From an uncultured Ignavibacteria bacterium (GTDB lineage Bacteria; Zixibacteria; MSB-5A5; WJJR01), in the NCBI GenBank assembly GCA_964440935.1, contig CAYTTY010000001.1:80933-144932 (forward strand): a DNA stretch of 64,000 nt, written 5' to 3'. Below, piece by piece: positions 45,751 to 61,423 of the stretch. The position numbers and the translations under genes are program-made. Position 1 is the first letter of the stretch, and each line of letters starts with the position of its first letter. Under the pieces are notes generated by a model, which worked only from the letters and a program-made list of their open reading frames with translations, was not told the origin of the DNA and did not search any database.

Positions 45751-45809
45751 AAGAGAGATGTCGGATGTTGGAGAATATCTCATACGATAGTGTCCATAGG
45801 AGGACGAGT

Positions 45810-48752
45810 ATGAAGCTCTTGAGGAAACTGATCGTTCCGACTGTTGTCCTCGCCTGGGCGTCCGTCGCGGTGGCGGCGGTGCCGATCGGGGGACCCTACG
45901 CGGGGGTTCAGCCGGCGGGGACACAGATCACGGATACACAAACATGGATCGATATCAACAACCTGTTGATGTTCGTCACCAACACCGGGTCGTTTGCCTA
46001 CGACCAGGGCGGTGTATTAGGCAAAAGCGACGGCCTTTACTTCCCGCGTGGCACCAACAAGACCGTCATTTTCGCAGGCGGTTTCTGGATGGGCGCCAAG
46101 GTGAACGATGAGATTCGTATCGCACTGGCCGAATATTCTGATGAGTTCGTTCCCGGTCCGTTTGGCGGCGACCCAACAGCCCAGAAAAACCGCGTCTACA
46201 AGATTCGTCAAGGCGACACGCCCGAATCGAATCCCGATTACGCCGACTGGCCATTCGAGGATGGTGCTCCGGCGTTGAAGGCCGCCGACGGCTCGGATTC
46301 GCTCGATGCCAGCGGCAATCCGATTCCCGGGCTAGTCGGCGACATGACCCTATGGTCGGTGTTTAATGACGGTGACCCGACGGCACATAGCAACAATGCC
46401 GGGGACACCGAGCCACTCAACGTCGAAGTGCACAATACGACCTTCGCCTTCGAACGCACGGGAGCGTTGGGCAACTGCATCTTTGTCCGCCTGAAGATCA
46501 TCAACAAGGGCGCCGACACGCTGAAGGACGCCTTTGTGAACACCTGGGCGGACCCTGATTTGGGTGATGCCGGTGACGACCTCGTGGGTTGCGACACCAC
46601 GCTCAGCCTGGGCTACTGCTACAACGCCGGCAGTGACCAGACCTATGGCGCGGCGCCGCCCGCAGTTGGTTACGACTTCTTCCAAGGTCCCATGATCGAG
46701 ACAGGCAACTTGGAAGATTCGGCGCTGGCCTACGGCCAGTGGTTCCACGGATTCAAGAACCTGCCGATGACATCGTTCAACAAATACATCAATGGTACAG
46801 ACCCCAGCAGCGCCGAGCAGTCCTACAACTACATGTCGGGTCTTCAGCGGGAGGGCCAGCCGCACACCAATCCGACTACTGGAGAGGTGACCACCTACGT
46901 GCATTCAGGCGATCCGGTCACCGGCATTGGCTGGCTTGATTCCAACCCGGCCGACCGTCGCTACTTCCTCTCATCCGGCCCATTCGACATGGCGCCGGGA
47001 GATTCGCAGGAAGTGGTGATCGGTATCGTGGTCGGACAGGGTGCCGACCGGCTCACGTCAATCACGGCGTTGAAGTTCAATGATCAGTTTGCACAGAGTG
47101 CATTCGACAAGAACTTCAACCTGCCACGCCCGCCGGTTGCACCGAAGATCACCGCGACCGAACTCGATCAGGCCGTTGTTCTCACGTGGACAGACACGTC
47201 GGAGGTCGACCCCGGTGACTACGCCTTTGAGGGGTACAATATCTATCAGGGGCTGACGAGTTCCGGACCCTGGCAGTGGCTGGCGACCTTTGATCTCGAA
47301 AACGAAATCACGGTCATCTTCGATCAGGACGTCGATTTGGATTTTGGTGTTGTCGTGGAGAAGCCGGTCCAGCGCGGTTCCGATTCGGGCATCAGACGCT
47401 ACATCCACCTTACGGATGACAAGTTCGAAGGACGGCCGCTACGCAACTACACCGACTATCATTTTGCGGTGACTGCTTACTCCTATAAAGAGGGAGAGGC
47501 ACCCAACAACCTTGAAAACCCATTCTCCGCGGCCCGTGTGAAGGTAACGCCGCAGCCGGAGGCACCGGGAGTGGACATTAGCGGTGTCCTTGCGGATACA
47601 ATTCCTGCCGAGCACACGGCCGGTGGTGGAGACGGCTCAGCATTCGCACTTGTGATCGATCCGTCGATCACAACGGGACACGATTACGCAGTCGGTTTTG
47701 ATGACGACGGCTCAGGTGGTTACACCTGGCGCGTCACCGATCTTGATGAGAACGACGACGTTGTTACGGGTCAAACCAACCAAAGCGGCGATGATGACTA
47801 TCCCATTTTCGATGGGCTCATGGTCAAAGTCCTCGGACCGCCGGTGGGCGTCAAGGGTGTCGATGAAGTGGCCAACGAGAGCGGCCCCATCGAACCGGAC
47901 AATGTTCATTTCAGTCTCAATTCAACTGGCGATTGGTACATCGATCCGGGTGGCGGCTTCGATCGCTACTCTTGGCAAGGTGGAACAACGCATGATTACG
48001 AGATTCGGTTCACGCCAGAGGCGACCGAATACTGCTGGGACTGGTTTGGACAGGGAGATTACGCGTTCGTCTTTGGAACACGTGTTCCCATTGAATTTTG
48101 GGATATCACAGACAACCGTCGAATCACCTTCATGTTGATCGACGACGATGAAAGTGGTGACTTTTCATGGGGCGACGGTCTGTACATTTGGGACATCAAC
48201 TACGATGACGTTGCCTGGGAGACTCCCGGGATTCACACGGGCGACTATGATCCGGATTACCACGATTTGCATTACGGTCGCTTCTGGTTTTACGACTACT
48301 CCCATGAGTTGACGCGGCCGGCACCGGGGACGATTGTGCGGGTGACGACGAATAAGATCAACACGGATGAGGACGTCTTCACGTTTACCGCCCCAGCGGT
48401 CGATACCGGCGGTCCGGCGGAGGTGGCCGACGATCTCTCGCAGATCAAAGTCGTGCCGAACCCGTATTACGCATTCTCGTCCTACGAGCCGGATCAGTTC
48501 GCACGTCAAGTCCGCTTCACCAACCTCCCGGAATCATGCACGATTCGCATTTTCAATCTGGGCGGTGACCTGGTACGGACACTCACAAAGGACGACCCGA
48601 CCACCTTCACGACGTGGAATCTTCAGACGGAAAACAACATCCTCGTTTCGTCGGGGCTGTATGTCTATGTCGTCACAGATAACATGTCGGGGGCCGATCA
48701 CGTGGGCAAGATGGCGGTCTTTGTTGAGATCGAACAATTGGATGTCTATTGA
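45810..48752 (+). CDS. large secreted protein with C-terminal T9SS-type sorting domain (Por_Secre_tail / FlgD-Ig-like); function unknown
   Basis: ATG 45810 preceded by GGAGGA. Signal peptide MKLLRKLIVPTVVLAWASVAVAA. The C-terminal ~90 aa (VVPNPYY...IRIFNLGGDLVRTL...SGLYVYVV...AVFV) matches the beta-sandwich CTD of T9SS cargo. An internal FN3-like segment is present. Confidence 0.6.
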   Translation: MKLLRKLIVPTVVLAWASVAVAAVPIGGPYAGVQPAGTQITDTQTWIDINNLLMFVTNTGSFAYDQGGVLGKSDGLYFPRGTNKTVIFAGGFWMGAKVNDEIRIALAEYSDEFVPGPFGGDPTAQKNRVYKIRQGDTPESNPDYADWPFEDGAPALKAADGSDSLDASGNPIPGLVGDMTLWSVFNDGDPTAHSNNAGDTEPLNVEVHNTTFAFERTGALGNCIFVRLKIINKGADTLKDAFVNTWADPDLGDAGDDLVGCDTTLSLGYCYNAGSDQTYGAAPPAVGYDFFQGPMIETGNLEDSALAYGQWFHGFKNLPMTSFNKYINGTDPSSAEQSYNYMSGLQREGQPHTNPTTGEVTTYVHSGDPVTGIGWLDSNPADRRYFLSSGPFDMAPGDSQEVVIGIVVGQGADRLTSITALKFNDQFAQSAFDKNFNLPRPPVAPKITATELDQAVVLTWTDTSEVDPGDYAFEGYNIYQGLTSSGPWQWLATFDLENEITVIFDQDVDLDFGVVVEKPVQRGSDSGIRRYIHLTDDKFEGRPLRNYTDYHFAVTAYSYKEGEAPNNLENPFSAARVKVTPQPEAPGVDISGVLADTIPAEHTAGGGDGSAFALVIDPSITTGHDYAVGFDDDGSGGYTWRVTDLDENDDVVTGQTNQSGDDDYPIFDGLMVKVLGPPVGVKGVDEVANESGPIEPDNVHFSLNSTGDWYIDPGGGFDRYSWQGGTTHDYEIRFTPEATEYCWDWFGQGDYAFVFGTRVPIEFWDITDNRRITFMLIDDDESGDFSWGDGLYIWDINYDDVAWETPGIHTGDYDPDYHDLHYGRFWFYDYSHELTRPAPGTIVRVTTNKINTDEDVFTFTAPAVDTGGPAEVADDLSQIKVVPNPYYAFSSYEPDQFARQVRFTNLPESCTIRIFNLGGDLVRTLTKDDPTTFTTWNLQTENNILVSSGLYVYVVTDNMSGADHVGKMAVFVEIEQLDVY

Positions 48753-48772
48753 GCGAGGGGAGAAACCGAACC

Positions 48773-49792
48773 ATGAAGAGACTCATAATCATCGTGGCGG
48801 CGATTGCCCTGGTGGTGAGTTGTGTGGACACCACGATCGCCGAAAACGCCCCACGCCTTGGATCGGCGGGCGCACATGAATTGCGTCTGCCTGTATCGGC
48901 CCGCATGATGGGCATGGCGGGTGCGTCGCTGGTGAACGCGAAAGGCACCGACGGGTTGTTCTGGAATCCTGCCGGGATTGCCATGTCGGAGCGCACCGAA
49001 CTGGAATTCTCGCACTTGACGTACATCGCGGATATCAATCAGAGTTACCTTGGTGCTGTCACGCATTTCGGCTCGATCGGATCATTTGGGCTGTCGGCGA
49101 AGTTCATTACGACGGGCGATATCGCCGTGACAACCGAAACCCAGCCCAATGGTACCGGCGAGATGTACTCACCGACGTTCTCGGTCATCGGTGCTCACTG
49201 GGCGCGCCGATTCACCGATCGTATCACCTTCGGGCTGTCGACGCATTACATCACCGAAAGCATCGATCGCGCGCGCGCGACAGGTGTCGCATTCGACTTG
49301 GGATTTGACTACGATCCGCAGTGGCGGGGACTGAAGTTTGCGATCGTGATGAAAAACTACGGCCCCGACATGCGGTTCGGTGGCGAGGGCTTCTCCGAAG
49401 ACGTGCGTGTTCCGGGGCAGGATCCCAACTCACCGGACAAAACCATTCGCCAGCAGTCGGCGGCGTTTGAATTGCCGTCACATGTGAAGCTTGGCTTGGC
49501 GTGGGAGGCATGGCAGCAGGATCGCAATAACATGATGCTCTACGGATCGTTCCAGAGCAACACGTTCAACAACGACGAAGGACACTTCGGCGGAGAGTAC
49601 TCGTACGACAACACGTTCTTCCTGCGCGCCGGATACACCTACTCCGATCAGGATGCGTACCTGTATGGTGTGACGTTCGGCGGCGGGCTTGTCCTCAAGT
49701 GGGGCGAGACCGACATGATGTTCGACTACGCCTGGACCGAAACCGACGTGTTCGACGCCAATCAGTATTTCACCGTCAAAGTGGCTTTCTGA
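48773..49792 (+). CDS. outer-membrane beta-barrel of the FadL/OmpP1/PorV superfamily (PorV/PorQ-like)
   Basis: Signal peptide. N-terminal hatch-like motif SARMMGMAGASLV...LFWNPAGIA (FadL family has SxRxxGxAGAG...NPA). Amphipathic beta-strand periodicity throughout; ends ...TVKVAF. Sits directly downstream of the CTD protein. Confidence 0.55.
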   Translation: MKRLIIIVAAIALVVSCVDTTIAENAPRLGSAGAHELRLPVSARMMGMAGASLVNAKGTDGLFWNPAGIAMSERTELEFSHLTYIADINQSYLGAVTHFGSIGSFGLSAKFITTGDIAVTTETQPNGTGEMYSPTFSVIGAHWARRFTDRITFGLSTHYITESIDRARATGVAFDLGFDYDPQWRGLKFAIVMKNYGPDMRFGGEGFSEDVRVPGQDPNSPDKTIRQQSAAFELPSHVKLGLAWEAWQQDRNNMMLYGSFQSNTFNNDEGHFGGEYSYDNTFFLRAGYTYSDQDAYLYGVTFGGGLVLKWGETDMMFDYAWTETDVFDANQYFTVKVAF

Positions 49793-49823
49793 TACGGATA
49801 TCAGAAAAGCGCACGGACGCTCA

Positions 49824-49859
49824 AAACACCCCCGCTCCGCAAGCGGGGGTGTTTTTTTG
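49824..49859 (+). terminator. Rho-independent terminator
   Basis: CACCCCCGC-TCCGCAA-GCGGGGGTG stem followed by T7 (TTTTTTT). Confidence 0.85.
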
Positions 49860-50043
49860 AGCAGGCGATCAGACGAGCGATTCGATCGTCGATGTGGCCC
49901 TGATGGCGCTTTGGGCCATCAGGGCCTGCGTACCTCACACTGGAATCGTATTCGGCCGTCATCCGCGATCAGTCATTGCGCACAGGACAAATGACGATAA
50001 CTTGGGTGGTACGATGTGGAGGCGTAGAACGTACAAAAGAGAC

Positions 50044-51975
50044 ATGACACGGCGTGGGGAATACAGGCTATCGGTATTCTGTGTGGTACTCGCACTCATG
50101 TTGGCTACGACTGTGGGTGCCCAGTCAGACCCACAGAGGCATGGTCCGATCTCGCCGCCCGCCATCGAAGTGGTGTATCCTAAGAAGGGGCAGCGGATCG
50201 GGCCGGTCGATTCCACGTTTGTGATCGGTTCAGTTACGCCGGGGGCATCTTTACGCATCAATGGCCATCTTATCGATGTCTACCGTACCGGTGGGTTTTT
50301 GGCCTGGCTGCCCGTCGAGAAGGGCAAGTTCACCTTCCGCCTGCGTGCGACCGATGGATTCCATTTCGATTCGCTCGACCTGCCGGTCACCATCGCCGAC
50401 CCGCGACCAATTCCGCCCGATAGCGGGCTGATCATCCGCAACGTGCGCCCGATGTGGAACCGGACGATTCGCGCCGGCGATGAAATCGAGATTCGGTTTG
50501 ATGGGACCGTCGGATGTGACGCCCGGTATTGGATTATCGGAGATGTCGATTCACTTGGGCCGTTTCCCATGGCTGAGCAGCATTATGAGCGCTATTCCGA
50601 TTTCCACACATATCGCAAGGACGCATTGCTCGAAGACGGTCCCCGGTACGATCAGGCGCCGTCCGGAGGCCGCTATACCGGTGTCTGGAGAGTCCCCGAT
50701 ATCGAGGGCGCCGATTCGCTGACGGTTCGAGTTGAGCTGACCGGGCTCTCTCAGAAATGGCTGGAGTCGCGACGGCGTCACTACAAGACACACTACGGGC
50801 CACCGATACCGATCGACACGACAGTCCGCACGATTCGTGAGACCGCAACCGGCAGATTGCGTCCAGTTGATGATCTCCCGCCGCGGGTGGTTGAATTCAC
50901 TGACAGTGTGCAGACGCTGCGCATGGGTCCAAGACTGGGGTACATCACGATCTTTCAGCCTTACGGTGTGCGCACCCGTTGGTGGGGAGAGGCGGGACCG
51001 TGGACCATCTTACAGTTGGCGCCGGGACACATCGCCTGGCTTGAAAAAGATAAGACGAGGCTCCTGCCGGAGGGCACGCCGGTTCCGGAAACATTTATTG
51101 CGCGGATGTCCACCAAAGTCAGCGGTGACGATGTGCAATTCCGCGTGGGAACGTCGGAGCGGATTCCATTCAAGATAACCGTCGATGACGATCTGCATCA
51201 TGTGCGCGTGATCCTGTTCGGCGCCACGTCGAACACCGACTGGATCGAGCACGATCCCGATGATGACCTGATCAAGAACATCACCTGGTCGCAAATGCAA
51301 CCCGGTGTGTATGTGATCAACTTACGCCTGGCGCAACAGGTGTGGGGTTACGATGCCCATTACGATAACAAACAGTTTGTGCTGGAATTCAAACGGCCAC
51401 CGTATGTCAGCGATGATCTCGAAGGACTCAAGGTCGCGGTCGATGCCGGGCATTCACGCGATCCCGGCGCCATTGGGCCGACCGGCCTGATGGAAAAGGA
51501 CGCGAATCTCAAGATCGCCTGGAAAGTACACGCCGAACTGAAAGAGCGCGGTGCTGATGTCGTCATGACGCGTCTCGGCGATGAACATGTCGCGCTCTAT
51601 GACCGCCCGTCGCTGTCGGTCGCCGAGGATGTCGACCTGTTCGTGTCGGTGCACAACAATGCCGTTCCCGACGGTATCAATCCGTACTACCGCAACGGCA
51701 CGTCAACGTACTACTACCACACGTTCTCACGCGATTTCGCGCGGCACATGCACCATCGTGTCCTCGATGCCACTGAACTCAACGATTACGGTCTCACCCA
51801 CGGCAACTTCGCCGTGATCCGTCCCACGCATTATCCCTCCGTCCTCGTTGAATGTGCGTTCATCATTCTCCCCGAACAGGAGGAGATGCTGTTGGACGAC
51901 GATTTCATTGAGCGCACGGCCAAGGGGATTGTGAAAGGTATTGAGGATTTCGTGGAGGCGCGGTTGAAGCGGTAA
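50044..51975 (+). CDS. multidomain N-acetylmuramoyl-L-alanine amidase (C-terminal Amidase_3/AmiC-type domain, ~450 aa N-terminal region of unknown function)
   Basis: Start chosen at ATG 50044 (MTRRGEYRLSVFCVVLALMLATTVGA signal peptide); the track ORF begins 49894. The C-terminal VAVDAGHSRDPGA...EHVAL...SVHNNA...ECAFI motifs are the Zn-binding residues of Amidase_3. Confidence 0.8.
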   Translation: MTRRGEYRLSVFCVVLALMLATTVGAQSDPQRHGPISPPAIEVVYPKKGQRIGPVDSTFVIGSVTPGASLRINGHLIDVYRTGGFLAWLPVEKGKFTFRLRATDGFHFDSLDLPVTIADPRPIPPDSGLIIRNVRPMWNRTIRAGDEIEIRFDGTVGCDARYWIIGDVDSLGPFPMAEQHYERYSDFHTYRKDALLEDGPRYDQAPSGGRYTGVWRVPDIEGADSLTVRVELTGLSQKWLESRRRHYKTHYGPPIPIDTTVRTIRETATGRLRPVDDLPPRVVEFTDSVQTLRMGPRLGYITIFQPYGVRTRWWGEAGPWTILQLAPGHIAWLEKDKTRLLPEGTPVPETFIARMSTKVSGDDVQFRVGTSERIPFKITVDDDLHHVRVILFGATSNTDWIEHDPDDDLIKNITWSQMQPGVYVINLRLAQQVWGYDAHYDNKQFVLEFKRPPYVSDDLEGLKVAVDAGHSRDPGAIGPTGLMEKDANLKIAWKVHAELKERGADVVMTRLGDEHVALYDRPSLSVAEDVDLFVSVHNNAVPDGINPYYRNGTSTYYYHTFSRDFARHMHHRVLDATELNDYGLTHGNFAVIRPTHYPSVLVECAFIILPEQEEMLLDDDFIERTAKGIVKGIEDFVEARLKR

Positions 51976-52155
51976 TGTTTACTGAAGTCGATGTGGTATG
52001 TTGACACTGACTCGACAACCCATTTAATTCACACTGGCCAAGGTCATTGCACATACGTCAGGGCACCCGGCCGGGAGTACACAGCGGTGCTCCCCGGCGC
52101 TGGGGCGTGTTGACAACGTCTTATAGCAATTGTCATAAATCCTTTCCGTTTGGAT

Positions 52156-52347
52156 CAGGGTGCCAGGGGCCTTGAGGGGTGTGTTGCAAAACCCCCGAGA
52201 ATCACAGCCTTCGGGAGGGCGAGCCTCCCGGCGAGCCGCAACGGCATGTTCCACACGGCGGCTCGGCGGGAGCCTCGCCCTCCCCAGTCTGAGGTGATGA
52301 TAGTCAGCAGGCTTCTCAACACGCCCCTTGAGGCCCGTGGCACCCTG
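52156..52347. repeat. long nested inverted repeat (31-bp outer stem enclosing a 27-bp inner stem)
   Basis: Outer arms CAGGGTGCCAGGGGCCTTGAGGGGTGTGTTG (52156-52186) and CAACACGCCCCTTGAGGCCCGTGGCACCCTG (52318-52347) pair at 30/31 allowing G-U. Inner arms 52213-52239 and 52258-52285 (GGGAGGGCGAGCCTCCCGGCGAGCCGC / GCGGCTCGGCGGGAGCCTCGCCCTCCCC) pair at 25/27. Each inner arm is itself palindromic (GGGAGG-GCGA-CCTCCC). Confidence 0.7.
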
Positions 52348-52452
52348 ATGTCATCACGATGCACACGGTGCCTCGCTTCCCCTCAATCGGAAATCTATTC
52401 TGACAACCGCTCTAGGATGTGATCATATCGGGCGTTGTGAAGACGATCATCT

Positions 52453-52523
52453 GTAGGGGCGTACTGAGTACGCCCTCTCCCCGTATCGGATACGCGCCGA
52501 GGGCGTATTCAATACGCCCCTAC
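52453..52523. repeat. twin perfect palindromes GGGCGTAYT-N-ARTACGCCC (candidate operator pair or cruciform)
   Basis: GGGCGTACTGAGTACGCCC at 52457-52475 and GGGCGTATTCAATACGCCC at 52501-52519, separated by a third palindrome CGTATCGGATACG (52482-52494). The outer 25-nt arms are also mutually complementary. Confidence 0.65.
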
Positions 52524-52663
52524 GAGAGTACACGATCTTCAATGACACACGTTTTGCAACACGTCCCTCTGCCGTGGGATGCGCCGGTATTCACACATGG
52601 GTTATATTATTCACGTCATATTTAAAGCAATTGTCAGAATAACGTTCTGATTAAATTGAGAAG

Positions 52664-52892
52664 TGTTGTCATTCTCGCGAAAGCGGGAATCCATTTTCCG
52701 CGCGTGGCTGGGCTCAAAATGGCTCCCAGCTTTCGCGGGGATGACAGCGAGGGTCCCTGACGGCCCAATGGATTGCCGTTTGATTTCTATACTCTGTCAT
52801 CCCCGTCGGCCGTGGCGGACCGAGACAGTGTCGTAATTGCTTGTGTACGAAGACAATGGATTCCCGCTTTCGCGGGAATGACAGCGAAGGTT
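52664..52892. mobile_element. MITE-like unit bounded by inverted copies of a dRS3-type palindromic repeat (ATTCCCGC-TTTC-GCGGGAAT + GACAGCGA)
   Basis: Copy 1 is on the minus strand at 52668-52693 (GTCATTCTCGCGAAAGCGGGAATCCA). Copy 2 is degenerate, on the plus strand at 52721-52752. Copy 3 is perfect, on the plus strand at 52857-52890 (TGGATTCCCGCTTTCGCGGGAATGACAGCGAAGG). Copies 1 and 3 form ~27-nt terminal inverted repeats around ~165 bp. Confidence 0.5.
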
Positions 52893-53269
52893 ACTTGGCA
52901 ATCGGAAATCTATTCTGACAACCGCTCTATTATAGTTATAGGACGACTGAGCCGTAGGTCAGGGGCACAGCGCCCGCAACGTCCGTTGCGTTCACGACTG
53001 CGTGAGCGTGCCGGGCTCCTGACAATCGGAGAACAGGGGAAGACCAGAGCGATTGTCAACACCGTCTTTCGATTGACCGAGCGATGTAGCACGGGCGCCT
53101 CGCCCGTGCGGCATGGCCCGCTCGACCATGCTCACGGCAAGCGGGACGGCCATGCTACGGTCTCGTGAATCGGAAAGTTCTTCTGACAATCGCTATAATC
53201 CCTGGCGTGTCAGGCGCGTGATTGGGATACCAGCGGCTTTACGACAATCGTTTCAATGGTGCACAAACT

Positions 53270-54094
53270 CTAGCCTTTCACCGCCCCCGCGGTAATCCCC
53301 GCAATAATCTGTCTTTGGAAGAAGAGGAACACGATCAGCACTGGAACCGTGGCCATAGTAGACGCAGCGAACAAGTGCGGAAGATCGACCCCCTGATAGC
53401 CCCGAAACATGGCCAAGGCAACGGGCAGTGTGCGCGCCTTTTCATTGGTGAGAATGAACGGGAAGAGAAACGAGTTCCACGTCAACCAGAACACCTGAAC
53501 CGCCAGCACCGCCAGTGTCGGTTTGCAGATAGGCATGACAATGCGGTACACGATCCGCCACGGTCCTGCACCGTCGACACGCGCCGCCTCCTCGACTTCA
53601 ATCGGCACCGATGACACCGCGCTACGCACCAAGAGTACACCGAGCGGCATCACGATGACGGGCAGGATGATCGCTGCAAGGGTGTCGTAAAGGCCGAGTT
53701 GATGGATCAGAATGAACATCGGTACAATCAACACATACTGCGGTACCATCAAAACGATCGCCGACGACGCAAACAAAACTCGTCGTCCGGGAAATCGACG
53801 CCGCGCTAAAGCATATCCCACCGGAAAACACAGCAACAGATTGCCAATCGTTACAATGATCGCAACGACGGCAGAATTGAACAGGTAAAAGCCAAATGGC
53901 ATCGACCCAAACAGATCGACGTAGTTGCCCCACCGTGGCGCATTATCCAACGGGTTGAACCAGCGCGCATCCCAGTGTGGCGATACCGAACCAACCACCA
54001 TCCAGATAAACGGGAGCAGCATCCCGGCTAGGACAATCAGCAGAACAACGGAGAGAGTCTTCTCGCCAGTGGTACGGGGACGATCGTGCCTCAT
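53270..54094 (-). CDS. carbohydrate ABC transporter permease (MalG/UgpE-type)
   Basis: Six transmembrane helices and an EAA loop (EAARVDGAGPWRIVYRIVMP); 274 aa. Confidence 0.85.
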   Translation of the reverse strand: MRHDRPRTTGEKTLSVVLLIVLAGMLLPFIWMVVGSVSPHWDARWFNPLDNAPRWGNYVDLFGSMPFGFYLFNSAVVAIIVTIGNLLLCFPVGYALARRRFPGRRVLFASSAIVLMVPQYVLIVPMFILIHQLGLYDTLAAIILPVIVMPLGVLLVRSAVSSVPIEVEEAARVDGAGPWRIVYRIVMPICKPTLAVLAVQVFWLTWNSFLFPFILTNEKARTLPVALAMFRGYQGVDLPHLFAASTMATVPVLIVFLFFQRQIIAGITAGAVKG

Positions 54095-54987
54095 TCTTCC
54101 GCACCCCGTCCAAATGACAACAACCGAAACTGAACGAGCGAAATCAGGGCGATGACAATAAACAACAAATAGGCCGCGGCCGATGCGTATCCCATGTCAA
54201 AACGCTCGAATCCCGACGTGTAAACATGATATACGACAGTCGTCGTCGACCCGACCGGCCCGCCCTGTGTCATTACGAAGATCTCGGTGAAGATCTGGAA
54301 ACTCTTGATCAGGTTGATCACGACCGCGTAGAGCAACATCGGCCGCAGGTACGGCCACGTGATCGCCCAGAACCGCTGCCAGGCATTGGCGCCGTGGGTC
54401 AACGCATCATCGATCAAATCCTGTGGAATGGTCTGCAACCCCGCCAGAAACAAAAGCGCGTAGTAGCCGATCGACACCCACACGTCCATGACCATCACCG
54501 CCAGCAGCGCGGTTGATTCCGAGAGCAGAAACCCCTGCTCCGGGACCGGAATGCCGATCATTTGCGCCAGGCGATACAGATATCCATTTTGGCCGTACAA
54601 CTGGAGAAATACCAGTGCGACGACCACTGTCGCCGTTAGTGTCGGTGCGAAAAAGCCGGCACGGAACAACGCCCGTCCCCAGATACGGCGGTTCAGCGCT
54701 AATGCAACGACGATGGCAATCGCGGTTGTAACCGGAACCGTTCCCGCCGCAAAGAATACGGTGTGCCCGAGTGCACTCCAGAATTCACTGTTGTTGAGCA
54801 CGGCTGCGAAGTTTGCCAGTCCGACCCACGTCCACTCACCGGAGAACACATCGCGCCGTGCAAAGGCGAGGGCCAAAGCATAGAGAAGAGGATACAGCCA
54901 GAAGACGCCGAGCACAATCGTCCATGGCAATGACAACACGACGCCCGACCAGTCGCGCCGGGTGTCGTGGGAGTCAGGTATGGACAT
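54091..54987 (-). CDS. carbohydrate ABC transporter permease (MalF/UgpA-type)
   Basis: EAA-like loop IDDALTHGANAWQRFWAITWPYLRP; six transmembrane helices. The stop overlaps the downstream permease start (ATGA). Confidence 0.85.
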   Translation of the reverse strand: MSIPDSHDTRRDWSGVVLSLPWTIVLGVFWLYPLLYALALAFARRDVFSGEWTWVGLANFAAVLNNSEFWSALGHTVFFAAGTVPVTTAIAIVVALALNRRIWGRALFRAGFFAPTLTATVVVALVFLQLYGQNGYLYRLAQMIGIPVPEQGFLLSESTALLAVMVMDVWVSIGYYALLFLAGLQTIPQDLIDDALTHGANAWQRFWAITWPYLRPMLLYAVVINLIKSFQIFTEIFVMTQGGPVGSTTTVVYHVYTSGFERFDMGYASAAAYLLFIVIALISLVQFRLLSFGRGAEE

Positions 54988-55010
54988 ATCCGTCGTTAGC
55001 GAAGAAGTTG

Positions 55011-56300
55011 CTACTTCTCCAAGATGTCATTAATGCGGTCGCAGGTTTCGGCCATGGCTGAGGGAGGATCCAACTTTTCGTACAAGGCCTGCTCAATACC
55101 CCATTCGAGTTCCTTTTCAATGTCAACCCAGTCGGGGTGCACCGGTGGTGATTGCGCGCTCAGCATCTGCCGCATAAACACGCGACGCACCGGATGCTCA
55201 TAGAAGTAGGGATTGTTTCCGGTCTCGATATGGACCGGAGTGGCACACCCGGTGGCGATACACAGGTTGAAAACGTGTTTCGGTTTGAGCAGATGACGCG
55301 CCAGCTTGATCGCGCCCAGCGGTTCTCGTGCGGCCCGTGGAATCGCCAGATACTCGCCACCGGCAAAGGAGACCGAGCCACCGTGGTCGACACTCGGCTG
55401 CGGGAGCATATGCACCGAGTAGCGAAAGTCGGCAATGTCGGCTTCATCGATCCGCCGATACAGCCAATCCCCGCTCAGATGGAAGAGCAGCTCGCCAGAC
55501 ATGAACATATTGTCCAGGACCGCTTGTTTTTCAACGATACCGAATTGCTTCAGATCGACAAAGAACTCCAGTGCTTCAATGGCCTCGGGCATCACCAGAG
55601 CGCACTGATCGCCGAGGAGGCTGTCGGGTTCGAGGATGTCCGCCTCATTCGACCACAGATAGGGGAGAAAGGCCTTGTAGAGCCGATGCCGTTCGGCCGC
55701 GTTGATGCCGTAGCCGTAAAACTGCGGTTTATGACGGTTGGCAAAACGCGACCACAGTTTCAATTCACCCCATGTGACTGGTGGACGGTTTGGCCGGAGG
55801 CCCACGACCTCCGCGATCACATCATTCTGGTATAGAACACGTGTGGAGAGATACCACGGTAACGCCCAACAGCTCCCTCGGTAGATGCTTGGTGGCCAGC
55901 CGATGTATTCGGGTTGCAGGCGGGCGTACTCTGACGACAGATCGGTCAGTGCACCCGGTGCTGCGAACTCGGCGATCCAATCCGATCCCACCTCGAGCAA
56001 GTCGGGTGCCTCATTGCCGGCAAACGCGGCCACGATCTTCTGATGTCCGTCGTTCCACGTCAGGTCGGTGATCTCGACTTCGTATTCGGGATTTTCGCTC
56101 TCGAATTCCTCGACCGCCTTGATGATGACGTCTTTGACCTTCGGATCGGTCCAGAACTGCCAGAAGCGAACGATCGTCCGTCCGTCTGAGGTTCGCTGAT
56201 TGTCGCCACTGCCACACCCGCCAAAGACAAGCACGACCGCTGCCAAGCAGAGGACAGTCAGACGACAGACGATTGCTGTGTGTGATTTGGTCATATCCAT
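55011..56300 (-). CDS. ABC transporter extracellular solute-binding protein (family 1, sugar-type) lipoprotein
   Basis: Signal peptide with lipobox (LVFGGCGS). ~430 aa, typical of MalE/UgpB-like solute-binding proteins. First gene of the SBP-permease-permease operon. Confidence 0.8.
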   Translation of the reverse strand: MDMTKSHTAIVCRLTVLCLAAVVLVFGGCGSGDNQRTSDGRTIVRFWQFWTDPKVKDVIIKAVEEFESENPEYEVEITDLTWNDGHQKIVAAFAGNEAPDLLEVGSDWIAEFAAPGALTDLSSEYARLQPEYIGWPPSIYRGSCWALPWYLSTRVLYQNDVIAEVVGLRPNRPPVTWGELKLWSRFANRHKPQFYGYGINAAERHRLYKAFLPYLWSNEADILEPDSLLGDQCALVMPEAIEALEFFVDLKQFGIVEKQAVLDNMFMSGELLFHLSGDWLYRRIDEADIADFRYSVHMLPQPSVDHGGSVSFAGGEYLAIPRAAREPLGAIKLARHLLKPKHVFNLCIATGCATPVHIETGNNPYFYEHPVRRVFMRQMLSAQSPPVHPDWVDIEKELEWGIEQALYEKLDPPSAMAETCDRINDILEK

Positions 56301-56309
56301 AACGCTAAA

Positions 56310-56345
56310 CAGCCCGCCTTTGGGCGGGCTGTCAAGTAACTAACG
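56310..56345 (-). terminator. hairpin between the LTXXQ gene and the ABC operon (possible terminator/attenuator)
   Basis: CAGCCCGCC-TTTG-GGCGGGCTG perfect 9-bp stem, followed on the minus strand by TTTAGCGTT. Confidence 0.4.
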
Positions 56346-56481
56346 ATGTGCAGATCAAAGTAGAGGGCGGTTTGGAGAATCATAGGTGATGGTGAGTGTA
56401 TGCATTCCTTTCGTTTTCATATCCGCGTCAGGACCATCCGCTACTACTTGCGTCCCAAACACACGGTCCGCAAACCCCAGG

Positions 56482-57567
56482 TTAGTGGGGTCCGCGGCGT
56501 CCGTGTGGACCAGACGGAAGGAGGTCCGTCATTGCCTCGAAAACAGCCTGTTGCTCGTCGTTTAGAATGGCTACGATTGCGTCGTGCGTGTCCTCACGAA
56601 TCTGCTCGACCTGTTCACGCCTGGCCTCACGATCGGGACGTTGATCGCCGATGCCGTCGTGCAGGTCCTGCATGTGGTCATGTGTCGTCGCCAGAATGGT
56701 CTCAAGCTGTGAGACCTGTGCATTGCTGAGATCCAGAGCTGCAGTCAAGAGTTCCACGCGGGCGTCGTGGCGCTCGATCATACCGTCCTGCATGTGTTCC
56801 CGACGTTCCTCGCGCCGCTCCTGACGATTGGCTTCGAGCTGCTGGAGTTGGTTGGGTGTGAGGATGGCTTCAACGCTTTCGCGCATCTGCTCGCGAAGAG
56901 CGACCGCTTCCTCGGACCGTCCGAAGCCGCGTTCACCGCCATATTGCTCGCGCAGTGCCTGCATGGCCTCGCGGTGCTCTTCGCGCAGTTCGGCTAACTG
57001 TGTTCGCTGCGCTTCAGTCGGATCCAGCTCGGCAAACATCTCTTGGCCGGACCCACGATGTCCTCGGAACCCGCGTCCGCCACGACGCCCATCGGTGCGG
57101 TCGGTCCACTGTTCCCGCGCCTGCATCCGCATGGTTTCATGCTGATCTTTGATGACTTCAAGCAACGCGACCATCTGATCGGCGTCGAGGATTTCGGCGC
57201 TCTCTTTGAGCAACGTATGGAGCGGACGGTCACCGGCGGGGCGTCCGCGAAAACCACGTTCGCCATCTTCACGCGCCTGTTGACGCTTCGCCCGGCGGCT
57301 GTCGACCGCGCGGTTGTAACGATCCAGCGCCGATTGCATCAGATTTTCCTGATCACTTTTCAGGCTGACTTTGGCCTGGACGGCGCTCAGCGTAATCGGT
57401 TCGATGAACGTGCCGTCATCGGTCGAGGCCGTCAGGTTCGACCCTTGTGTGCTGGTATCGCCCGACTGGCATCCGACCAGTCCGAATGCGAAGAGGGCGA
57501 CGCCGAGGATCAGGATACTGCCGATCATTTGCGTGCGGCGTTTCGGTGTCATTGTTGGTGTCTTCAT
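56482..57567 (-). CDS. periplasmic LTXXQ-motif protein (Spy/CpxP/ZraP family-like), lipoprotein
   Basis: Start at ATG 57567 (rc) with an AGGAGG Shine-Dalgarno; the track begins 57681. Lipobox LVGC. Repeated LxxxQ-type helices (LDADQMVALL, LDPTEAQRTQLAEL, LTPNQLQQL). Highly charged, low-complexity and helical. Confidence 0.65.
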   Translation of the reverse strand: MKTPTMTPKRRTQMIGSILILGVALFAFGLVGCQSGDTSTQGSNLTASTDDGTFIEPITLSAVQAKVSLKSDQENLMQSALDRYNRAVDSRRAKRQQAREDGERGFRGRPAGDRPLHTLLKESAEILDADQMVALLEVIKDQHETMRMQAREQWTDRTDGRRGGRGFRGHRGSGQEMFAELDPTEAQRTQLAELREEHREAMQALREQYGGERGFGRSEEAVALREQMRESVEAILTPNQLQQLEANRQERREERREHMQDGMIERHDARVELLTAALDLSNAQVSQLETILATTHDHMQDLHDGIGDQRPDREARREQVEQIREDTHDAIVAILNDEQQAVFEAMTDLLPSGPHGRRGPH

Positions 57568-57632
57568 CGTGTAGTCCTCCTGAAGCTGATTGCTATAGCT
57601 CGTTATCGTGTATTCCCTGCCTGAATTCTCGA

Positions 57633-58454
57633 CTAGTTCAGTTCGGACATCGGCTCGACGGCGAGTTCGACTTTCGTCCATTGGTTTAGCGGCTCGGGCC
57701 GTTCGGGACGATTGCGGCCGCGTCGGCCAAAGCCACCGGCGCCACCGAATCGACCGTCTCGTCCACGCATGCCTTCGCGTGTCTTCACCAGTGGCTCACG
57801 ATCAAATTCGGGTTTAGGCGTCTCGAAGCCGATTCCGATGTCGCCGCCCGGATTCGTTCCAATTGCGTAGAGATGTTCTTCACTGTAGAAGAGTGGCACC
57901 TTCAACTCGTAGACTAGCCGCCTGTTTTCAATCATCAGTTGCGCGCTGATGTCCGCCCGGGCGCCGGTCTGGATGCGCTGAATGACCTCGCCTTGTTCAT
58001 CCAGCAACTCCATTCCCGGCGCCAGCGAGTCGGACAACACAGTGAGATCGTTACGATCCGGACGTTTTCCCGTGAATCGTCGAAGTGATCCGCTACCCAC
58101 AAGTCCCACCGGATAGCGGACACCAAATTCCTTATCATCGCCGCCGTCGGGATCGAACCATATGATCAGGCCAAGCCCCATGATCTGACGAATGGCCGTC
58201 TCATCAGTGGTGGCCAAATGAACATAGATGAATTCGTCATCATTCCGAACCGCGATCCCGACTTTGGTGTCATCGAGGTGGATTTTCGCCTGAGCCCACT
58301 CCGATTCCGCGCCGTCAATAACGACGGAGTCGGAATTCCACTGACTGGTGATTTCCGGTTCGCCGCTGTGTGCCGTCGTCACGTAGAGGCCGCAGACAAG
58401 AATCGCGACCAGGCCGCTGGTGATTCGCTTGGTTGTGTCAGTCCGTGCCAACAT
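57633..58454 (-). CDS. hypothetical secreted protein
   Basis: Signal peptide (VAILVCGLYVTTAHS). Gly/Arg-rich C-terminal tail. Between the HK and the LTXXQ protein on the same strand. Confidence 0.45.
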   Translation of the reverse strand: MLARTDTTKRITSGLVAILVCGLYVTTAHSGEPEITSQWNSDSVVIDGAESEWAQAKIHLDDTKVGIAVRNDDEFIYVHLATTDETAIRQIMGLGLIIWFDPDGGDDKEFGVRYPVGLVGSGSLRRFTGKRPDRNDLTVLSDSLAPGMELLDEQGEVIQRIQTGARADISAQLMIENRRLVYELKVPLFYSEEHLYAIGTNPGGDIGIGFETPKPEFDREPLVKTREGMRGRDGRFGGAGGFGRRGRNRPERPEPLNQWTKVELAVEPMSELN

Positions 58455-58595
58455 TTCCTGCCCTCCATGAGCGCTCGGTCTCCGTCGCTCTCACAAGGGA
58501 ATACCTTTGAGATGTGGTAGAAATGTTGCAGAGGGATGGAATTGTGCGATTGGGCTCAGAATTCGATGTGGATGACCCTGCGTCGCCCGGACCTC

Positions 58596-58632
58596 CCGCC
58601 CGCGCGGCATGGCCGAGACGGCCATGCTACGA
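58596..58632. repeat. REP-like palindromic element (second copy of the one at 53100-53160)
   Basis: GCGGCATGGCC-GAGAC-GGCCATGCTACG with a perfect 8-bp stem. 53108-53157 carries the same termini (GCGGCATGGCC...GACGGCCATGCTACG) with an internal insertion. Confidence 0.5.
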
Positions 58633-58642
58633 GAGTGGGCTC

Positions 58643-60106
58643 TTACCGTGGCAACTCATTGCCCTTAGGCAGTTCGACAGAAATCACCGCCCCCGACGGT
58701 TCCTGATTCGCGGCCCAAACAGATCCACCATGCTGCTGCGCGATCTCTTTGACGATGGCCAGTCCCAGTCCTGTCCCTGAATCGGAACGCGCTGGATCGG
58801 CACGGTAAAACCGGTCGAAAATGTGGGGAAGGTCATCATCACGAAAACCCGAACCGTCGTCGGCTACGGTCAGCCTGTATCGGTCCGGTGAAGGCACATC
58901 AATGCTGACCGTGACCGATCCACCAGATGGCACATATCGCAGCGAATTGATCAGCAGATTTTCGAACATCTGTTCGAGCCGACGACCGTCGGCGATGATC
59001 CAGGCTTCCTGATCCGGTGTCGGACCATCGATCTGCAATCCGGCTTTCTCAAAGCGTGGACGGTAGCGGCCGATCGTGTTGCGACATAACGCCGCCCAAT
59101 CAAGCGATTCGGGAGAGAGGGCCGCCGACCCCGACTCCAACCGAGCCAACTCGAGCAGATCATTCACGAGCAAGCCCATCCGTTGCGATTCATCGAGGAT
59201 ATTCGACAGATACTGACGTCGTTCATCATCCGAAATCGGTATGTCGGGCCGCTGTAAGGTCTCCGCATATCCACGAATCGATGTCAGCGGTGTCGAAAGT
59301 TCGTGCGAGATATCGGCCAGCAGTTGGCGACGTTGCTTATCCATCCGTTCGACGCGCTCCCGGGATTGCGCCAGGCTCTCTGTCATACGATTGAGCTGCT
59401 CACCGACACGGTCGATTTCGTCTCGTCCGGAGTGTTCCACCCGGACACTCAAGTCACCCTCAGCCACCTGCAAGGCCAGATGTTCGAGCGCGCGAATCCG
59501 TCGGAGCAGATAACGGAAGATGATGAATCCACCGGCGCCGGCGAGGACGATCGCCACCGGCAGGATAAACAGGATGTGCCACGGCGAGTGCTGGCGGCGT
59601 AAAGAGATGCCGCGTCGGGGTGACATGGCCACCACTTCACCAATGACGCCTTCAGTGGTCTCAACAGGCATGACCGCTGTCATCAGCCGCTTGTCGGATT
59701 GGATTTCCCAGAGACGGCGTCCCCAGCGCCGCCCGCGCGTTGAGTCCTGGCCCTCGTCGGGTGGTGCGAGACCGGGCGGCGGGTTCATCCGGTTAAACGG
59801 ACCGGGACGACTCGCGACAATCTCGCCATCAGTGCCGCGAAAGGTCAGACGGGCACCCGATTCGATTGACGAATACTCGCGTAAGATCTCGCGGATCTGG
59901 CCCTGCGTAGGATTGCCCGGAAGCGAAGCCAGTTCGCGAGCGGCATCGCGCGCCAAGTCCTCCAGCGTGCTTTGCTGCAAACGATCGGCGATCGGCCGTA
60001 GAATGGTGACAGCGAAGACACCCTGGACAATGGTGGCGACGACCAGAACCAGCAGGAAGACGCCGGCGAAGGTCCACAGCAAGCTGCGGGGACGCAATCG
60101 CTTCAT
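58643..60106 (-). CDS. sensor histidine kinase (TM-periplasmic-TM-HAMP-HisKA-HATPase)
   Basis: H-box ADISHELSTPLTSIRG; N box LINSLRY; G boxes DDGSGF and GTGLGLAIV; 487 aa. Confidence 0.85.
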   Translation of the reverse strand: MKRLRPRSLLWTFAGVFLLVLVVATIVQGVFAVTILRPIADRLQQSTLEDLARDAARELASLPGNPTQGQIREILREYSSIESGARLTFRGTDGEIVASRPGPFNRMNPPPGLAPPDEGQDSTRGRRWGRRLWEIQSDKRLMTAVMPVETTEGVIGEVVAMSPRRGISLRRQHSPWHILFILPVAIVLAGAGGFIIFRYLLRRIRALEHLALQVAEGDLSVRVEHSGRDEIDRVGEQLNRMTESLAQSRERVERMDKQRRQLLADISHELSTPLTSIRGYAETLQRPDIPISDDERRQYLSNILDESQRMGLLVNDLLELARLESGSAALSPESLDWAALCRNTIGRYRPRFEKAGLQIDGPTPDQEAWIIADGRRLEQMFENLLINSLRYVPSGGSVTVSIDVPSPDRYRLTVADDGSGFRDDDLPHIFDRFYRADPARSDSGTGLGLAIVKEIAQQHGGSVWAANQEPSGAVISVELPKGNELPR

Positions 60107-60789
60107 TCACTTGCCTCCGTGAATCGATAACCGGCGCCCCAGACCGTTTGAATGTAGCGCGGATGGGACGCATCGGTCTCGAGATGTTTTCGCAGGCGGC
60201 TGATCAGACTATCGATGGAACGTGGATCGACCACCCGATCTTCACCCCAGACCTGTTCCATCAGGGCCTCCCGCGAGTACACGCGCCCGGCATGCGACGC
60301 CATGAAGTAGAGCAAGTCGAATTCGAGTGATGTCAGTTCGACCGGCTGTCCATTGCGCATCACGACGCGGCGCGACGGATCGATGGTCAACGGACCGCGG
60401 GTCAGCGGCTCCTTACGTGAGACCGATGTTGTTCGCCTCAGCAGCGCGCGGACACGTGCCACCAGCTCGAGGGTACTGAATGGCTTGGTGAGATAGTCGT
60501 CCGCGCCGATTTCAAATCCAAGTACCTTGTCGCCTTCGCTGGAGCGGGCCGTGAGCATCAGGATGGGGAGATCGCTGTCGCGACGAATCTGTCGGGTGAG
60601 TTCGATCCCGTCCATATGCGGCATCATGACATCCAGCACCAGCAACCGGGGACGCTGCCGTTGCACCTCATGCAAGGCGGTCAATCCATCGTGAACCTGT
60701 CGGCACGAGAACCCGGCTGCTTCGAGGTTCTTAGCCACCAGTTCGGCAATCTTGCGGTCATCTTCGGCAATGAGAATGTCCAGGCTCAT
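60103..60789 (-). CDS. OmpR-family response regulator (receiver + winged-helix DNA-binding domain)
   Basis: ILIAEDD, LLVLDVMMPHMDG and KP receiver motifs. C-terminal winged helix (...YIQTVWGAGYRF). Overlaps the HK by 4 nt. Confidence 0.9.
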   Translation of the reverse strand: MSLDILIAEDDRKIAELVAKNLEAAGFSCRQVHDGLTALHEVQRQRPRLLVLDVMMPHMDGIELTRQIRRDSDLPILMLTARSSEGDKVLGFEIGADDYLTKPFSTLELVARVRALLRRTTSVSRKEPLTRGPLTIDPSRRVVMRNGQPVELTSLEFDLLYFMASHAGRVYSREALMEQVWGEDRVVDPRSIDSLISRLRKHLETDASHPRYIQTVWGAGYRFTEASE

Positions 60790-60884
60790 AACATACGCTC
60801 GCTGGAAATCGGCATCCTGTCAAGCAGATCGAATCGACTCGCGTGATTCACACGTCCCCTGACTCCTCAACGAGGGGTGCCCCA

Positions 60885-60921
60885 CCCTAACCGGAAGCCA
60901 TTACATGGCTTCCGGTTAGGG
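60885..60921. other. perfect 15-bp stem hairpin in the regulator upstream region
   Basis: CCCTAACCGGAAGCC-ATTACAT-GGCTTCCGGTTAGGG. No U-tract on either strand. Preceded by a second small hairpin (CCCCTG...GAGGGG). Confidence 0.5.
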
Positions 60922-61397: not shown

Positions 61398-61423
61398 CCC
61401 GACCGGCTGGCTTCGATGGAAAT

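What the first reader, a model, noticed from the sequence alone, without database searches (positions are those of the whole stretch)
52664..52892. MITE-like element whose inverted termini are dRS3-type palindromes (ATTCCC-N8-GGGAAT)
There are three copies of a 28-33-nt unit whose core is ATTCCCGC-TTTC-GCGGGAAT. The outer two are inverted relative to each other and enclose ~165 bp. The ATTCCC-N8-GGGAAT architecture, flanked by GTC...CCA, is as I recall it (unverified) for the dRS3 repeats that delimit Neisseria intergenic mosaic elements and serve as phage/IS integration targets. The gene content and GC of this window are clearly not neisserial. This is therefore either convergent evolution of a similar small palindromic repeat in an FCB-group bacterium or something that deserves a contamination/chimera check.
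Basis: partly seen in the sequence, partly recalled or inferred. Interest (0 to 1): 0.6.

Follow-up and report, generated by a model that had tools for sequence, protein, structure and literature searches.

The report
Ssn-type hairpin repeats inside a MITE
The three small palindromes are copies of a hairpin DNA repeat already known from Neisseria and many other bacteria (the target of the Ssn single-strand nuclease), here sitting inside a small transposon relic in a Zixibacteria genome, so the finding is real but ordinary.

Summary
Three copies of a 28-nt unit lie at 52667-52694 (+), 52719-52746 (-) and 52856-52883 (-). The units match the 28-nt NTS consensus CGTCATTCCCGCGMAVGCGGGAATCYRG at 25, 22 and 26 of 28 positions. 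All three fit the published degenerate "Ssn-related motif" (SRM) pattern of Chenal et al. 2025. The choice between convergence and contamination is a false one: the same 28-mer occurs in species genomes of about 20 phyla, including two Zixibacteria, four Ignavibacteria and one Bacteroidetes MAG. The host is probably a Zixibacteria (FCB group). In fetched loci the motif flanks small GIY-YIG (Ssn-like) genes. An independent short-read assembly matches the window at 100% on both sides, and its contigs break only inside transposon ends. The proposed element boundaries are wrong. The real mobile element is an IS630-type MITE at 52623-52929, with 30-nt inverted ends and TA flanks, and the NTS cluster is its interior. 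Copies 1 and 2 form a compact inverted pair of about 80 bp that recurs in other genomes. No ssn gene lies in the window, and the rest of the genome could not be checked. This is a new member of a known kind, of low interest.

The parts
52667..52694 (+). NTS/SRM hairpin repeat, copy 1 (TGTCATTCTCGCGAAAGCGGGAATCCAT). The NTS sense is on the + strand.
   Evidence: 3 mismatches of 28 to the NTS consensus and a fit to the SRM pattern. The ssDNA hairpin is -5.6 kcal/mol. GTC before the palindrome and C after it are kept.
52719..52746 (-). NTS/SRM hairpin repeat, copy 2, degenerate (TGTCATCCCCGCGAAAGCTGGGAGCCAT on the - strand).
   Evidence: 6 mismatches of 28 but still fits the SRM pattern. The hairpin is weak, z -0.5.
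52856..52883 (-). NTS/SRM hairpin repeat, copy 3, the best copy (TGTCATTCCCGCGAAAGCGGGAATCCAT on the - strand). It contains an exact dRS3 20-mer at 52860-52879.
   Evidence: 2 mismatches of 28. The hairpin is -9.0 kcal/mol, z -3.9. The identical 28-mer occurs in two Zixibacteria and three Ignavibacteria MAG loci.
52667..52746 (.). Compact inverted pair: NTS(+), a 24-nt spacer, then NTS(-). The whole unit is an ~80-nt palindrome.
   Evidence: It aligns end to end with 17 such pairs from other genomes. The spacing is similar but the spacer sequence is not conserved. It folds at -28.9 kcal/mol, z -7.0.
52766..52805 (.). Two short stretches that look like decayed half-NTS units: CAATGGATTGCCGTTT at 52766-52781 and CTGTCATCCCCG at 52794-52805.
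   Evidence: the repeat finder families D9, I19 and I22. They do not pass the SRM pattern, so they are only possible relics.
52623..52929 (.). IS630-type MITE no. 2 (307 bp, including the TA at each end). The whole NTS cluster is its interior.
   Evidence: 30-nt inverted ends at 52623-52652 and 52900-52929 (pair I10). The same ends bound a 1117-bp element in L253 that encodes a DDE_3 + HTH_33/32/29 transposase. All ends start with TA followed by GAGCGRTTGTCAKAA.
52122..52414 (.). IS630-type MITE no. 1 (293 bp). It is context, not part of the NTS cluster.
   Evidence: The Logan contig L263 ends at 52148, inside its left end.
53045..53197 (.). IS630-type MITE no. 3 (153 bp). It is context.
   Evidence: The Logan contig L001 starts at 53169, inside its right end.

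Best explanation
The three units are copies of the NTS / Ssn-related motif (SRM). This is the pan-bacterial hairpin repeat of which the Neisseria dRS3 is the core.

How the motif works, as shown for Neisseria and Wolbachia homologues in PMC11893778:
- When the DNA is single-stranded, the sense strand folds into an 8-bp stem with a 4-nt loop.
- A small single-domain GIY-YIG nuclease (Ssn, cd10448) binds the hairpin by sequence. The C just 3' of the palindrome is critical for binding.
- Ssn cuts the single strand a few nucleotides 5' of the GTC. Double-stranded DNA, RNA and the opposite strand are not cut.

Inferred for this locus. The + strand carries one cleavable site, just left of 52667. The - strand carries two, just right of 52746 and of 52883. 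Either strand, once single-stranded during transformation, conjugation or replication, could therefore be cut if the genome encodes a cognate Ssn.

Copies 1 and 2 have the NTS(+)...NTS(-) layout seen around ssn genes elsewhere, but without the gene. This fits a gene-less derivative of an NTS-ssn-NTS unit (inference).

The whole cluster lies inside an IS630-type MITE, in a 1.3-kb gap between convergent genes. That gap has collected three such MITEs and other hairpin repeats. Locally it is most likely a passive or selfish repeat with no gene-specific role.
For: - Sequence identity to the NTS consensus and a fit of all three copies to the published SRM pattern (consensus and pattern quoted from PMC11893778).
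- The positions the paper found critical are kept in all three copies: GTC upstream and C after the palindrome.
- Copies 1 and 3 fold as ssDNA hairpins.
- The same motif occurs in more than 119 genome stretches from about 20 phyla and in more than 120 viral-collection stretches. The identical 28-mer is present in FCB-group genomes of 34-60% GC, so it does not follow base composition.
- 8 of 239 motif-fetched loci carry an 85-95-aa GIY-YIG gene next to the motif. In L142 the order is NTS 2609-2636(+), gene 2648-2917, NTS 2943-2970(-). In L200 it is NTS ~326-363(+), gene 390-674, NTS 684-711(-).
- Compact inverted pairs like 52667-52746 recur in 17 other loci.
- The enclosing MITE is shown.
Against: - No ssn-like gene is in the 64-kb window (tblastn E >= 0.47; motif search). 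The rest of the genome could not be read.
- Only one cluster occurs per 64 kb, so enrichment in this genome is not shown.
- By the paper's strict NTS criterion (at most 1 mismatch) none of the copies qualifies. The first and last bases differ (T for C, T for G).
- Copy 2 is too decayed to fold well.
- No experiment bears on this organism.
Confidence: 0.8

Rival explanations
1. The 217-bp stretch 52667-52883 is itself a MITE whose terminal inverted repeats are the two outer palindromes.
For: The arms are 32 nt and 94% complementary. The NTS(+)...NTS(-) layout is the same as around ssn genes, which the authors of PMC11893778 compare with an insertion sequence.
Against: - The arms are no longer than the generic 28-32-nt motif.
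- The interior 52747-52851 matches nothing in 262 fetched loci or elsewhere in the window.
- The arrangement that recurs elsewhere is the ~80-bp pair formed by copies 1 and 2, not the pairing of copies 1 and 3.
- The ends that match a real transposase-bearing element are the IS630-type repeats outside it.
Confidence: 0.1
2. The motif arose here by convergent evolution of a small palindrome, unrelated to dRS3/NTS.
For: None beyond the phylogenetic distance from Neisseria.
Against: - 26 of 28 positions are identical, including the non-palindromic flanks.
- The same 28-mer is present in about 20 phyla regardless of GC.
- It is linked with a conserved nuclease family, whose members are ~70% identical across phyla.
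Confidence: 0.02
3. The stretch is contaminating or chimeric Neisseria-like DNA joined into the contig.
For: The motif was first described in Neisseria.
Against: - Similarity to any NTS-bearing locus is limited to the 28-89-nt repeat units.
- GC is flat.
- The unit is embedded in a MITE family shared with environmental metagenomes, not with Neisseria.
- An independent assembly of SRR7048227 agrees at 100% on both sides and breaks only in MITE ends.
- Other Zixibacteria MAGs carry the same 28-mer.
Confidence: 0.01
4. The hairpins act at the RNA level, as terminators or 3'-end stabilisers for the convergent amidase and ABC-permease transcripts, as REP elements do.
For: The location is between convergent genes. 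Copy 3 on the - strand is the one terminator-like hit of the scan. An Rfam sRNA family, FtrB of Francisella, contains the same hairpin.
Against: - One terminator-like hit against 1.2 expected in shuffles.
- The T-run is poor (CCATTGTCTT), and the site is about 390 nt past the permease stop.
- The FtrB hit is 27 bits against a gathering score of 66.
- SsnA does not act on RNA (PMC11893778).
Confidence: 0.07

Closest known systems
NTS (Neisseria Transformation Sequence) / Ssn-related motifs (SRM), targets of the GIY-YIG ssDNA nuclease SsnA (Chenal et al., Nat Commun 2025, PMC11893778)
   Same: - The same 28-nt unit with an oriented flank (GTC ... C).
- The same 8-bp stem and GAAA-type loop.
- All three copies fit the SRM search pattern.
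- The copies occur in inverted pairs and clusters in intergenic DNA.
- In related loci fetched here the motif flanks small GIY-YIG genes.
   Different: - The first and last bases differ from the Neisseria consensus (T...T instead of C...G).
- The host is a Zixibacteria.
- Only one cluster occurs in 64 kb.
- No ssn gene is seen in the window.
- The cluster sits inside an IS630-type MITE.
dRS3 repeats and neisserial intergenic mosaic elements (NIME) (Bentley et al. 2007, PMC1797815)
   Same: - One exact ATTCCC-N8-GGGAAT 20-mer, with further copies separated by 28 to 169 nt of non-conserved DNA. This is within the published 19-214 bp range for RS elements.
- The gap also holds insertion-sequence-derived repeats, as NIME arrays do.
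   Different: - NIME arrays were described as specific to Neisseria, with hundreds of dRS3 copies and more than 100 recurring RS families.
- Here there are three units, no recurring spacer family was detected, and the host is not Neisseria.
IS630 / Tc1-mariner family MITEs
   Same: The enclosing element 52623-52929 has:
- ~30-nt terminal inverted repeats identical in type to those of a DDE_3 transposase-bearing element (L253).
- TA at both ends.
- No ORF.
- Sister copies next to it and in metagenomes.
   Different: Sister copies share only the ends. Each has a different hairpin-rich interior.
REP / BIME elements with RAYT (IS200/IS605-like) transposases
   Same: - Short hairpin repeats read as single-stranded DNA by a dedicated small nuclease.
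- Clustered in mosaics between convergent genes.
   Different: The enzyme fold is different (GIY-YIG versus HUH). There is no sequence similarity, and mobility of SRMs is not demonstrated.

Membership tests
dRS3 (Neisseria) | Exact 20-bp palindromic frame ATTCCC-N8-GGGAAT | tested here: met
   52860-52879 is exact. 52671-52690 has 1 mismatch. 52723-52742 has 4 mismatches of 12. So one of the three copies meets the strict definition.
dRS3 / NIME (Neisseria) | Hundreds of copies per genome, forming arrays with recurring RS spacer families; described as genus-specific | tested here: not met
   There is one cluster of three units in 64 kb. The spacers match nothing else. The host is Zixibacteria-like. 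Only the window could be examined, not the whole genome.
NTS sensu stricto (PMC11893778) | CGTCATTCCCGCGMAVGCGGGAATCYRG with at most one mismatch | tested here: not met
   The copies have 2, 3 and 6 mismatches. The two mismatches of the best copy are the outermost bases.
Ssn-related motif (SRM) | Match to HGTCWYN(0-2)YYVSBRHN(0-5)WNVSBRGN(0-2)RNCYNB | tested here: met
   All three copies match. One further match at 36746 looks like chance. The expectation is 0.5 per window.
Ssn-related motif (SRM) | Forms a hairpin as single-stranded DNA; GTC 5' of the palindrome and C 3' of it are conserved | tested here: met
   Fold results are (copies 1 and 3; copy 2 is weak). The flanking bases are kept in all three copies (criteria).
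Ssn-related motif (SRM) | The genome encodes a cd10448-type single-domain GIY-YIG Ssn nuclease, often flanked by the motif | tested here: inconclusive
   There is none in the window. The remaining ~150 kb of the NCBI contig and the rest of the genome could not be fetched. The association itself was reproduced in 8 fetched loci.
Ssn-related motif (SRM) | Genome-wide enrichment over shuffled expectation | not testable with these tools
   Only 64 kb of the genome is available, and the single genome-contig scan did not return the host genome.
IS630-family MITE (enclosing element 52623-52929) | Terminal inverted repeats shared with an autonomous element that encodes a DDE_3 (IS630-type) transposase | tested here: met
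   L253 holds a 1117-bp element with the same ends and a 347-aa ORF. The ORF matches DDE_3 at 7.5e-37 plus HTH_33/32/29.
IS630-family MITE (enclosing element 52623-52929) | TA target-site duplication, small size, no ORF, several copies | tested here: met
   TA lies at 13 of 14 ends examined. The elements are 94-307 bp. There are three copies in the window and three in metagenome loci. Short-read contigs break inside the ends.
   No match to the interior was found in the window or in 262 loci. The sample of sequences is limited, and the host genome itself was not searched.
Intrinsic terminator | GC-rich hairpin followed by a T-run, in excess of chance | tested here: inconclusive
   One site was found (copy 3, - strand) against 1.2 expected.

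The most novel reading that the evidence does not exclude
SRM hairpins can travel as cargo inside IS630-type MITEs. This would give the motif a route of spread driven by a DDE transposase that needs no Ssn nuclease. Alternatively, hairpin-rich MITE interiors could be preferred landing sites for SRM units. In support, the whole NTS cluster here is the interior of one MITE. A 94-bp sister MITE in a metagenome contig (L255 2952-3045) also carries a half NTS, CCGCGGGAATGACG.
Probability: 0.12. Interest if true: 0.45.

Novelty: new member of a known kind. Interest (0 to 1): 0.2.

Why it matters
- It removes a false alarm. The Neisseria-like palindrome is not contamination and not convergence.
- It adds a Zixibacteria example to the pan-bacterial Ssn-related motif described in 2025.
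- It shows that annotating this motif would explain many odd 'hypothetical proteins', such as the WIPAFAGMT and SFSRKRES peptides read from it, and many contig breaks in metagenome assemblies.
- The nesting inside an IS630-type MITE is a small new detail. It could bear on how these repeats spread.

Tried and rejected
- **Rfam.** Nothing reached gathering score in the whole window. In the permissive search, the weak FtrB hit (27 bits against 66) and the mir-4891 hit are explained by the hairpins alone.
- **GIY-YIG gene in the window.** A motif regex and tblastn with two Ssn-like proteins both found none.
- **IS630 transposase in the window.** tblastn found none.
- **Reaching the rest of the host genome.**
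  - The exact-protein look-ups returned only two Logan contigs, which end in the spacer, or nothing.
  - Spurious ORFs of the spacer are not in the protein collection.
- **Orthologous spacer in the related MAG GCA_014729565.1.** It is not alignable and its contigs end in it, so no empty-site comparison was possible.
- **Third repeat, GGGRCGTGTTGCAAAAC.** No hits in viral contigs.
- **Supplementary tables of PMC11893778.** The per-genome SRM counts are not held.

Full report
**Where it lies.** The finding sits in a 1.3-kb gap between two convergent genes. One is an N-acetylmuramoyl-L-alanine amidase on the + strand, ending at 51975. The other is the last permease gene of an ABC sugar-type transporter operon on the - strand, ending at 53270. 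GC is even across the region, 0.556 against 0.55-0.60 elsewhere.

**Host.** Window proteins fall in 90%-identity clusters with proteins named 'candidate division Zixibacteria bacterium': MBD3298724.1, MBD3299284.1, MBD3299285.1 and MBD3298151.1. NCBI places that phylum in the FCB group, kingdom Pseudomonadati.

**The observation.** The three units exist as described.
- The repeat finder reports arms at 52667-52698 and 52852-52883: 32 nt, 94% complementary, 153 nt apart. A third, weaker copy lies at 52716-52746.
- Only the copy at 52860-52879 is an exact ATTCCC-N8-GGGAAT. The first copy has one mismatch, and the middle one has four of the twelve fixed positions changed.
- Nothing similar occurs elsewhere in the window.
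- As single-stranded DNA, copies 1 and 3 fold into an 8-bp stem with a GAAA loop. Copy 2 barely folds.

**What the unit is.** A literature search for dRS3 and for the sequence itself led to Chenal et al. 2025 (PMC11893778).
- That paper shows that about half of the Neisseria dRS3 repeats are the core of a longer, oriented 28-nt unit, the NTS: CGTCATTCCCGCGMAVGCGGGAATCYRG.
- NTS-like 'Ssn-related motifs' (SRM) occur in many bacterial phyla.
- They are bound as single-stranded hairpins and cut a few nucleotides upstream by SsnA, a 94-aa single-domain GIY-YIG nuclease (cd10448). The gene for SsnA is often flanked by the motif.
- In N. meningitidis this lowers transformation by NTS-bearing DNA.

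The window's copies read TGTCATTCTCGCGAAAGCGGGAATCCAT (+), TGTCATCCCCGCGAAAGCTGGGAGCCAT (-) and TGTCATTCCCGCGAAAGCGGGAATCCAT (-). They have 3, 6 and 2 mismatches to the NTS consensus. All three fit the published SRM search pattern, against 0.5 matches expected per window. The bases the paper found most critical are kept in all three: the three nucleotides before the palindrome (GTC) and the C after it.

**Distribution, tested here.**
  - Proteobacterial hits include Alpha-, Beta-, Gamma- and Deltaproteobacteria.
  - Other phylum-level hits are Chloroflexota, Planctomycetota, Verrucomicrobiota, Spirochaetota, Nitrospirota, Acidobacteriota, Actinomycetes, Cyanobacteria and Vampirovibrionales.
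  - Candidate and less-studied groups hit are Omnitrophota, Armatimonadota, Abditibacteria, Atribacterota and several CPR groups.
  - Within the FCB group the hits are two Zixibacteria MAGs, several Ignavibacteria and one Bacteroidetes MAG.
- The FCB genomes range from 34 to 60% GC. Five of the seven loci examined (both Zixibacteria and three Ignavibacteria) carry the identical 28-mer, and the other two differ only in the loop.
- This rules out convergence by composition, and it makes contamination from Neisseria unnecessary as an explanation.
- Among the 239 loci fetched by the motif alone, eight carry an 85-95-aa GIY-YIG gene next to it (PF01541). In L142 and L200 the layout is NTS(+) - gene - NTS(-).
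- A protein search with one of these genes saturated at 8000 clusters, with about 70% identity across phyla.
- So the association reported in the paper is reproduced in independent data.

**Internal layout.** Copies 1 and 2 (52667-52746) form a compact inverted pair of about 80 nt. Seventeen loci from other genomes align with it end to end. The spacing is similar (about 12-27 nt between the 28-mers) but the spacer sequence is unrelated. The orientation, NTS(+) then NTS(-), is the one seen around ssn genes, so the pair looks like a gene-less derivative of such a unit. This step is inference. Copy 3 is a solitary unit 109 nt further on. Between them lie two short stretches that may be decayed halves (families D9, I19, I22). 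I found no second copy of the 217-bp stretch as a whole.

**The real mobile element.** A different 30-nt repeat, AATCGGAAAnnTnTTCTGACAAnCGCTnTA, occurs six times in the same gap in alternating orientation: 52122-, 52385+, 52623-, 52900+, 53045-, 53168+.
- A metagenome scan for it returned 22 stretches.
- In four of them the repeat forms the same minus-then-plus pairs, 94 to 1117 bp long.
- The 1117-bp one (L253) encodes a 347-aa protein with DDE_3 and HTH_33/32/29 domains, the make-up of IS630-family transposases.
- Thirteen of the fourteen ends begin with TA followed by GAGCGRTTGTCAKAA, which fits the TA duplication of that family.

The gap therefore holds three IS630-type MITEs: 52122-52414, 52623-52929 and 53045-53197. 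The sister copies share only the ends.

**Chimera check.** Contigs from the Logan assembly of run SRR7048227 are 100% identical to the window over 41205-52148 and 53169-64000. They stop inside the left end of MITE 1 and the right end of MITE 3. That is the behaviour of a short-read assembler at dispersed repeats, not of a false join. The 1,020 bp in between could not be confirmed independently.

**What remains open.**
- No ssn gene and no IS630 transposase lie in the window, and I could not read the rest of the genome. Whether this genome has a working Ssn/SRM pair, or only a relic, is therefore undecided.
- A related Zixibacteria MAG (GCA_014729565.1) has flanking genes 83-87% identical in DNA. 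Its spacer cannot be aligned apart from one hairpin pair, and both its contigs also end in the spacer. The gap is thus fast-evolving and repeat-rich in the lineage.
- An RNA-level role is not supported. No Rfam family reaches threshold, and the single terminator-like hit is what chance gives.

**Verdict.**
- The dRS3 likeness is real, and it is explained by membership in the known, pan-bacterial NTS/SRM repeat class.
- The MITE boundaries and the 'convergence or contamination' alternatives are not supported.
- This is a new member of a known kind and of low interest. The one small new point is the nesting of an SRM cluster inside an IS630-type MITE.

Noticed in passing
window 52122-52414, 52623-52929, 53045-53197: Three IS630-type MITEs of 293, 307 and 153 bp lie in one convergent intergenic gap. 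They share ~30-nt ends (TA + GAGCGRTTGTCAGAATAnnTTTCCGATT) with a DDE_3 transposase-bearing element in metagenome locus L253, but each has a different hairpin-rich interior. Left and right ends differ consistently: TTTATGACAAT...AAACGG on one side and TTCTGACAA...AATCGG on the other.
   Followed up: yes
window 52453-52523: This is a 35-nt-arm palindrome made of two hairpins of the type GTAGGGGCGTA-N5-TACGCCC. That hairpin is itself widespread: 52 stretches in viral contigs, some as inverted pairs ~86-89 nt apart. It is also present in the orthologous spacer of the related MAG (L316 4581-4661). No Ssn-like gene was found next to it in those loci, and its partner protein, if any, is unknown.
   Followed up: partly
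window 52154-52349 (inside MITE 1): Nested inverted repeats: 40-nt arms at 52154-52193 and 52310-52349 (83%) enclose a 27-nt-arm, 93% palindrome at 52213-52284. A motif GGGGYGTGTTG(A/C)nAA recurs at 52102, 52174, 52313(-) and 52551(-). The exact pattern had no hits in viral contigs.
   Followed up: partly
L263 end = window 52148; L001 end = window 53169: Short-read (Logan) contigs of run SRR7048227 stop exactly inside the outermost MITE inverted repeats. This implies that these ends are multi-copy in the genome.
   Followed up: yes
window 52823-52905 (- strand): A weak Rfam hit to FtrB, a Francisella sRNA (27 bits, gathering score 66), arises because the FtrB model contains the same GUCAUUCCCGCG-loop-CGCGGGAAUC hairpin. 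That sRNA family may therefore include an Ssn-related motif.
   Followed up: no
L148 5789-5924 (Ignavibacterium album MAG): A head-to-tail tandem array of the same 28-mer with a 36-nt period (three SRM-pattern matches plus at least one degenerate copy). This arrangement differs from the inverted pairs seen elsewhere.
   Followed up: no
window 52634-52901, both strands: Spurious ORFs across the repeats translate to peptides such as WIPAFAGMT, SFSRKRES, CHSRESGNP and VILAKAGIH. From my own recollection, which I have not verified, such peptides are common among 'hypothetical proteins' of many genomes. That would fit the breadth of the motif.
   Followed up: no
L316 4489-4696 and L317 6698-6840 versus window 51976-53269: In the related Zixibacteria MAG GCA_014729565.1 the flanking genes are 83-87% identical in DNA, but the spacer is not alignable and both contigs end inside it. 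Both tails share GGTGCCCCACCGCTTG. The L317 tail also has an NTS-like remnant, CCGCTTGCGCTGGGATGAG.
   Followed up: partly
(protein search with the L228 Ssn-like protein): The Ssn-like GIY-YIG family saturates the search at 8000 clusters. Its members are about 70% identical between Caldilineaceae, Omnitrophota and Ignavibacteria. Many lie on contigs under 2 kb, as expected for a repeat-flanked and possibly mobile gene.
   Followed up: no
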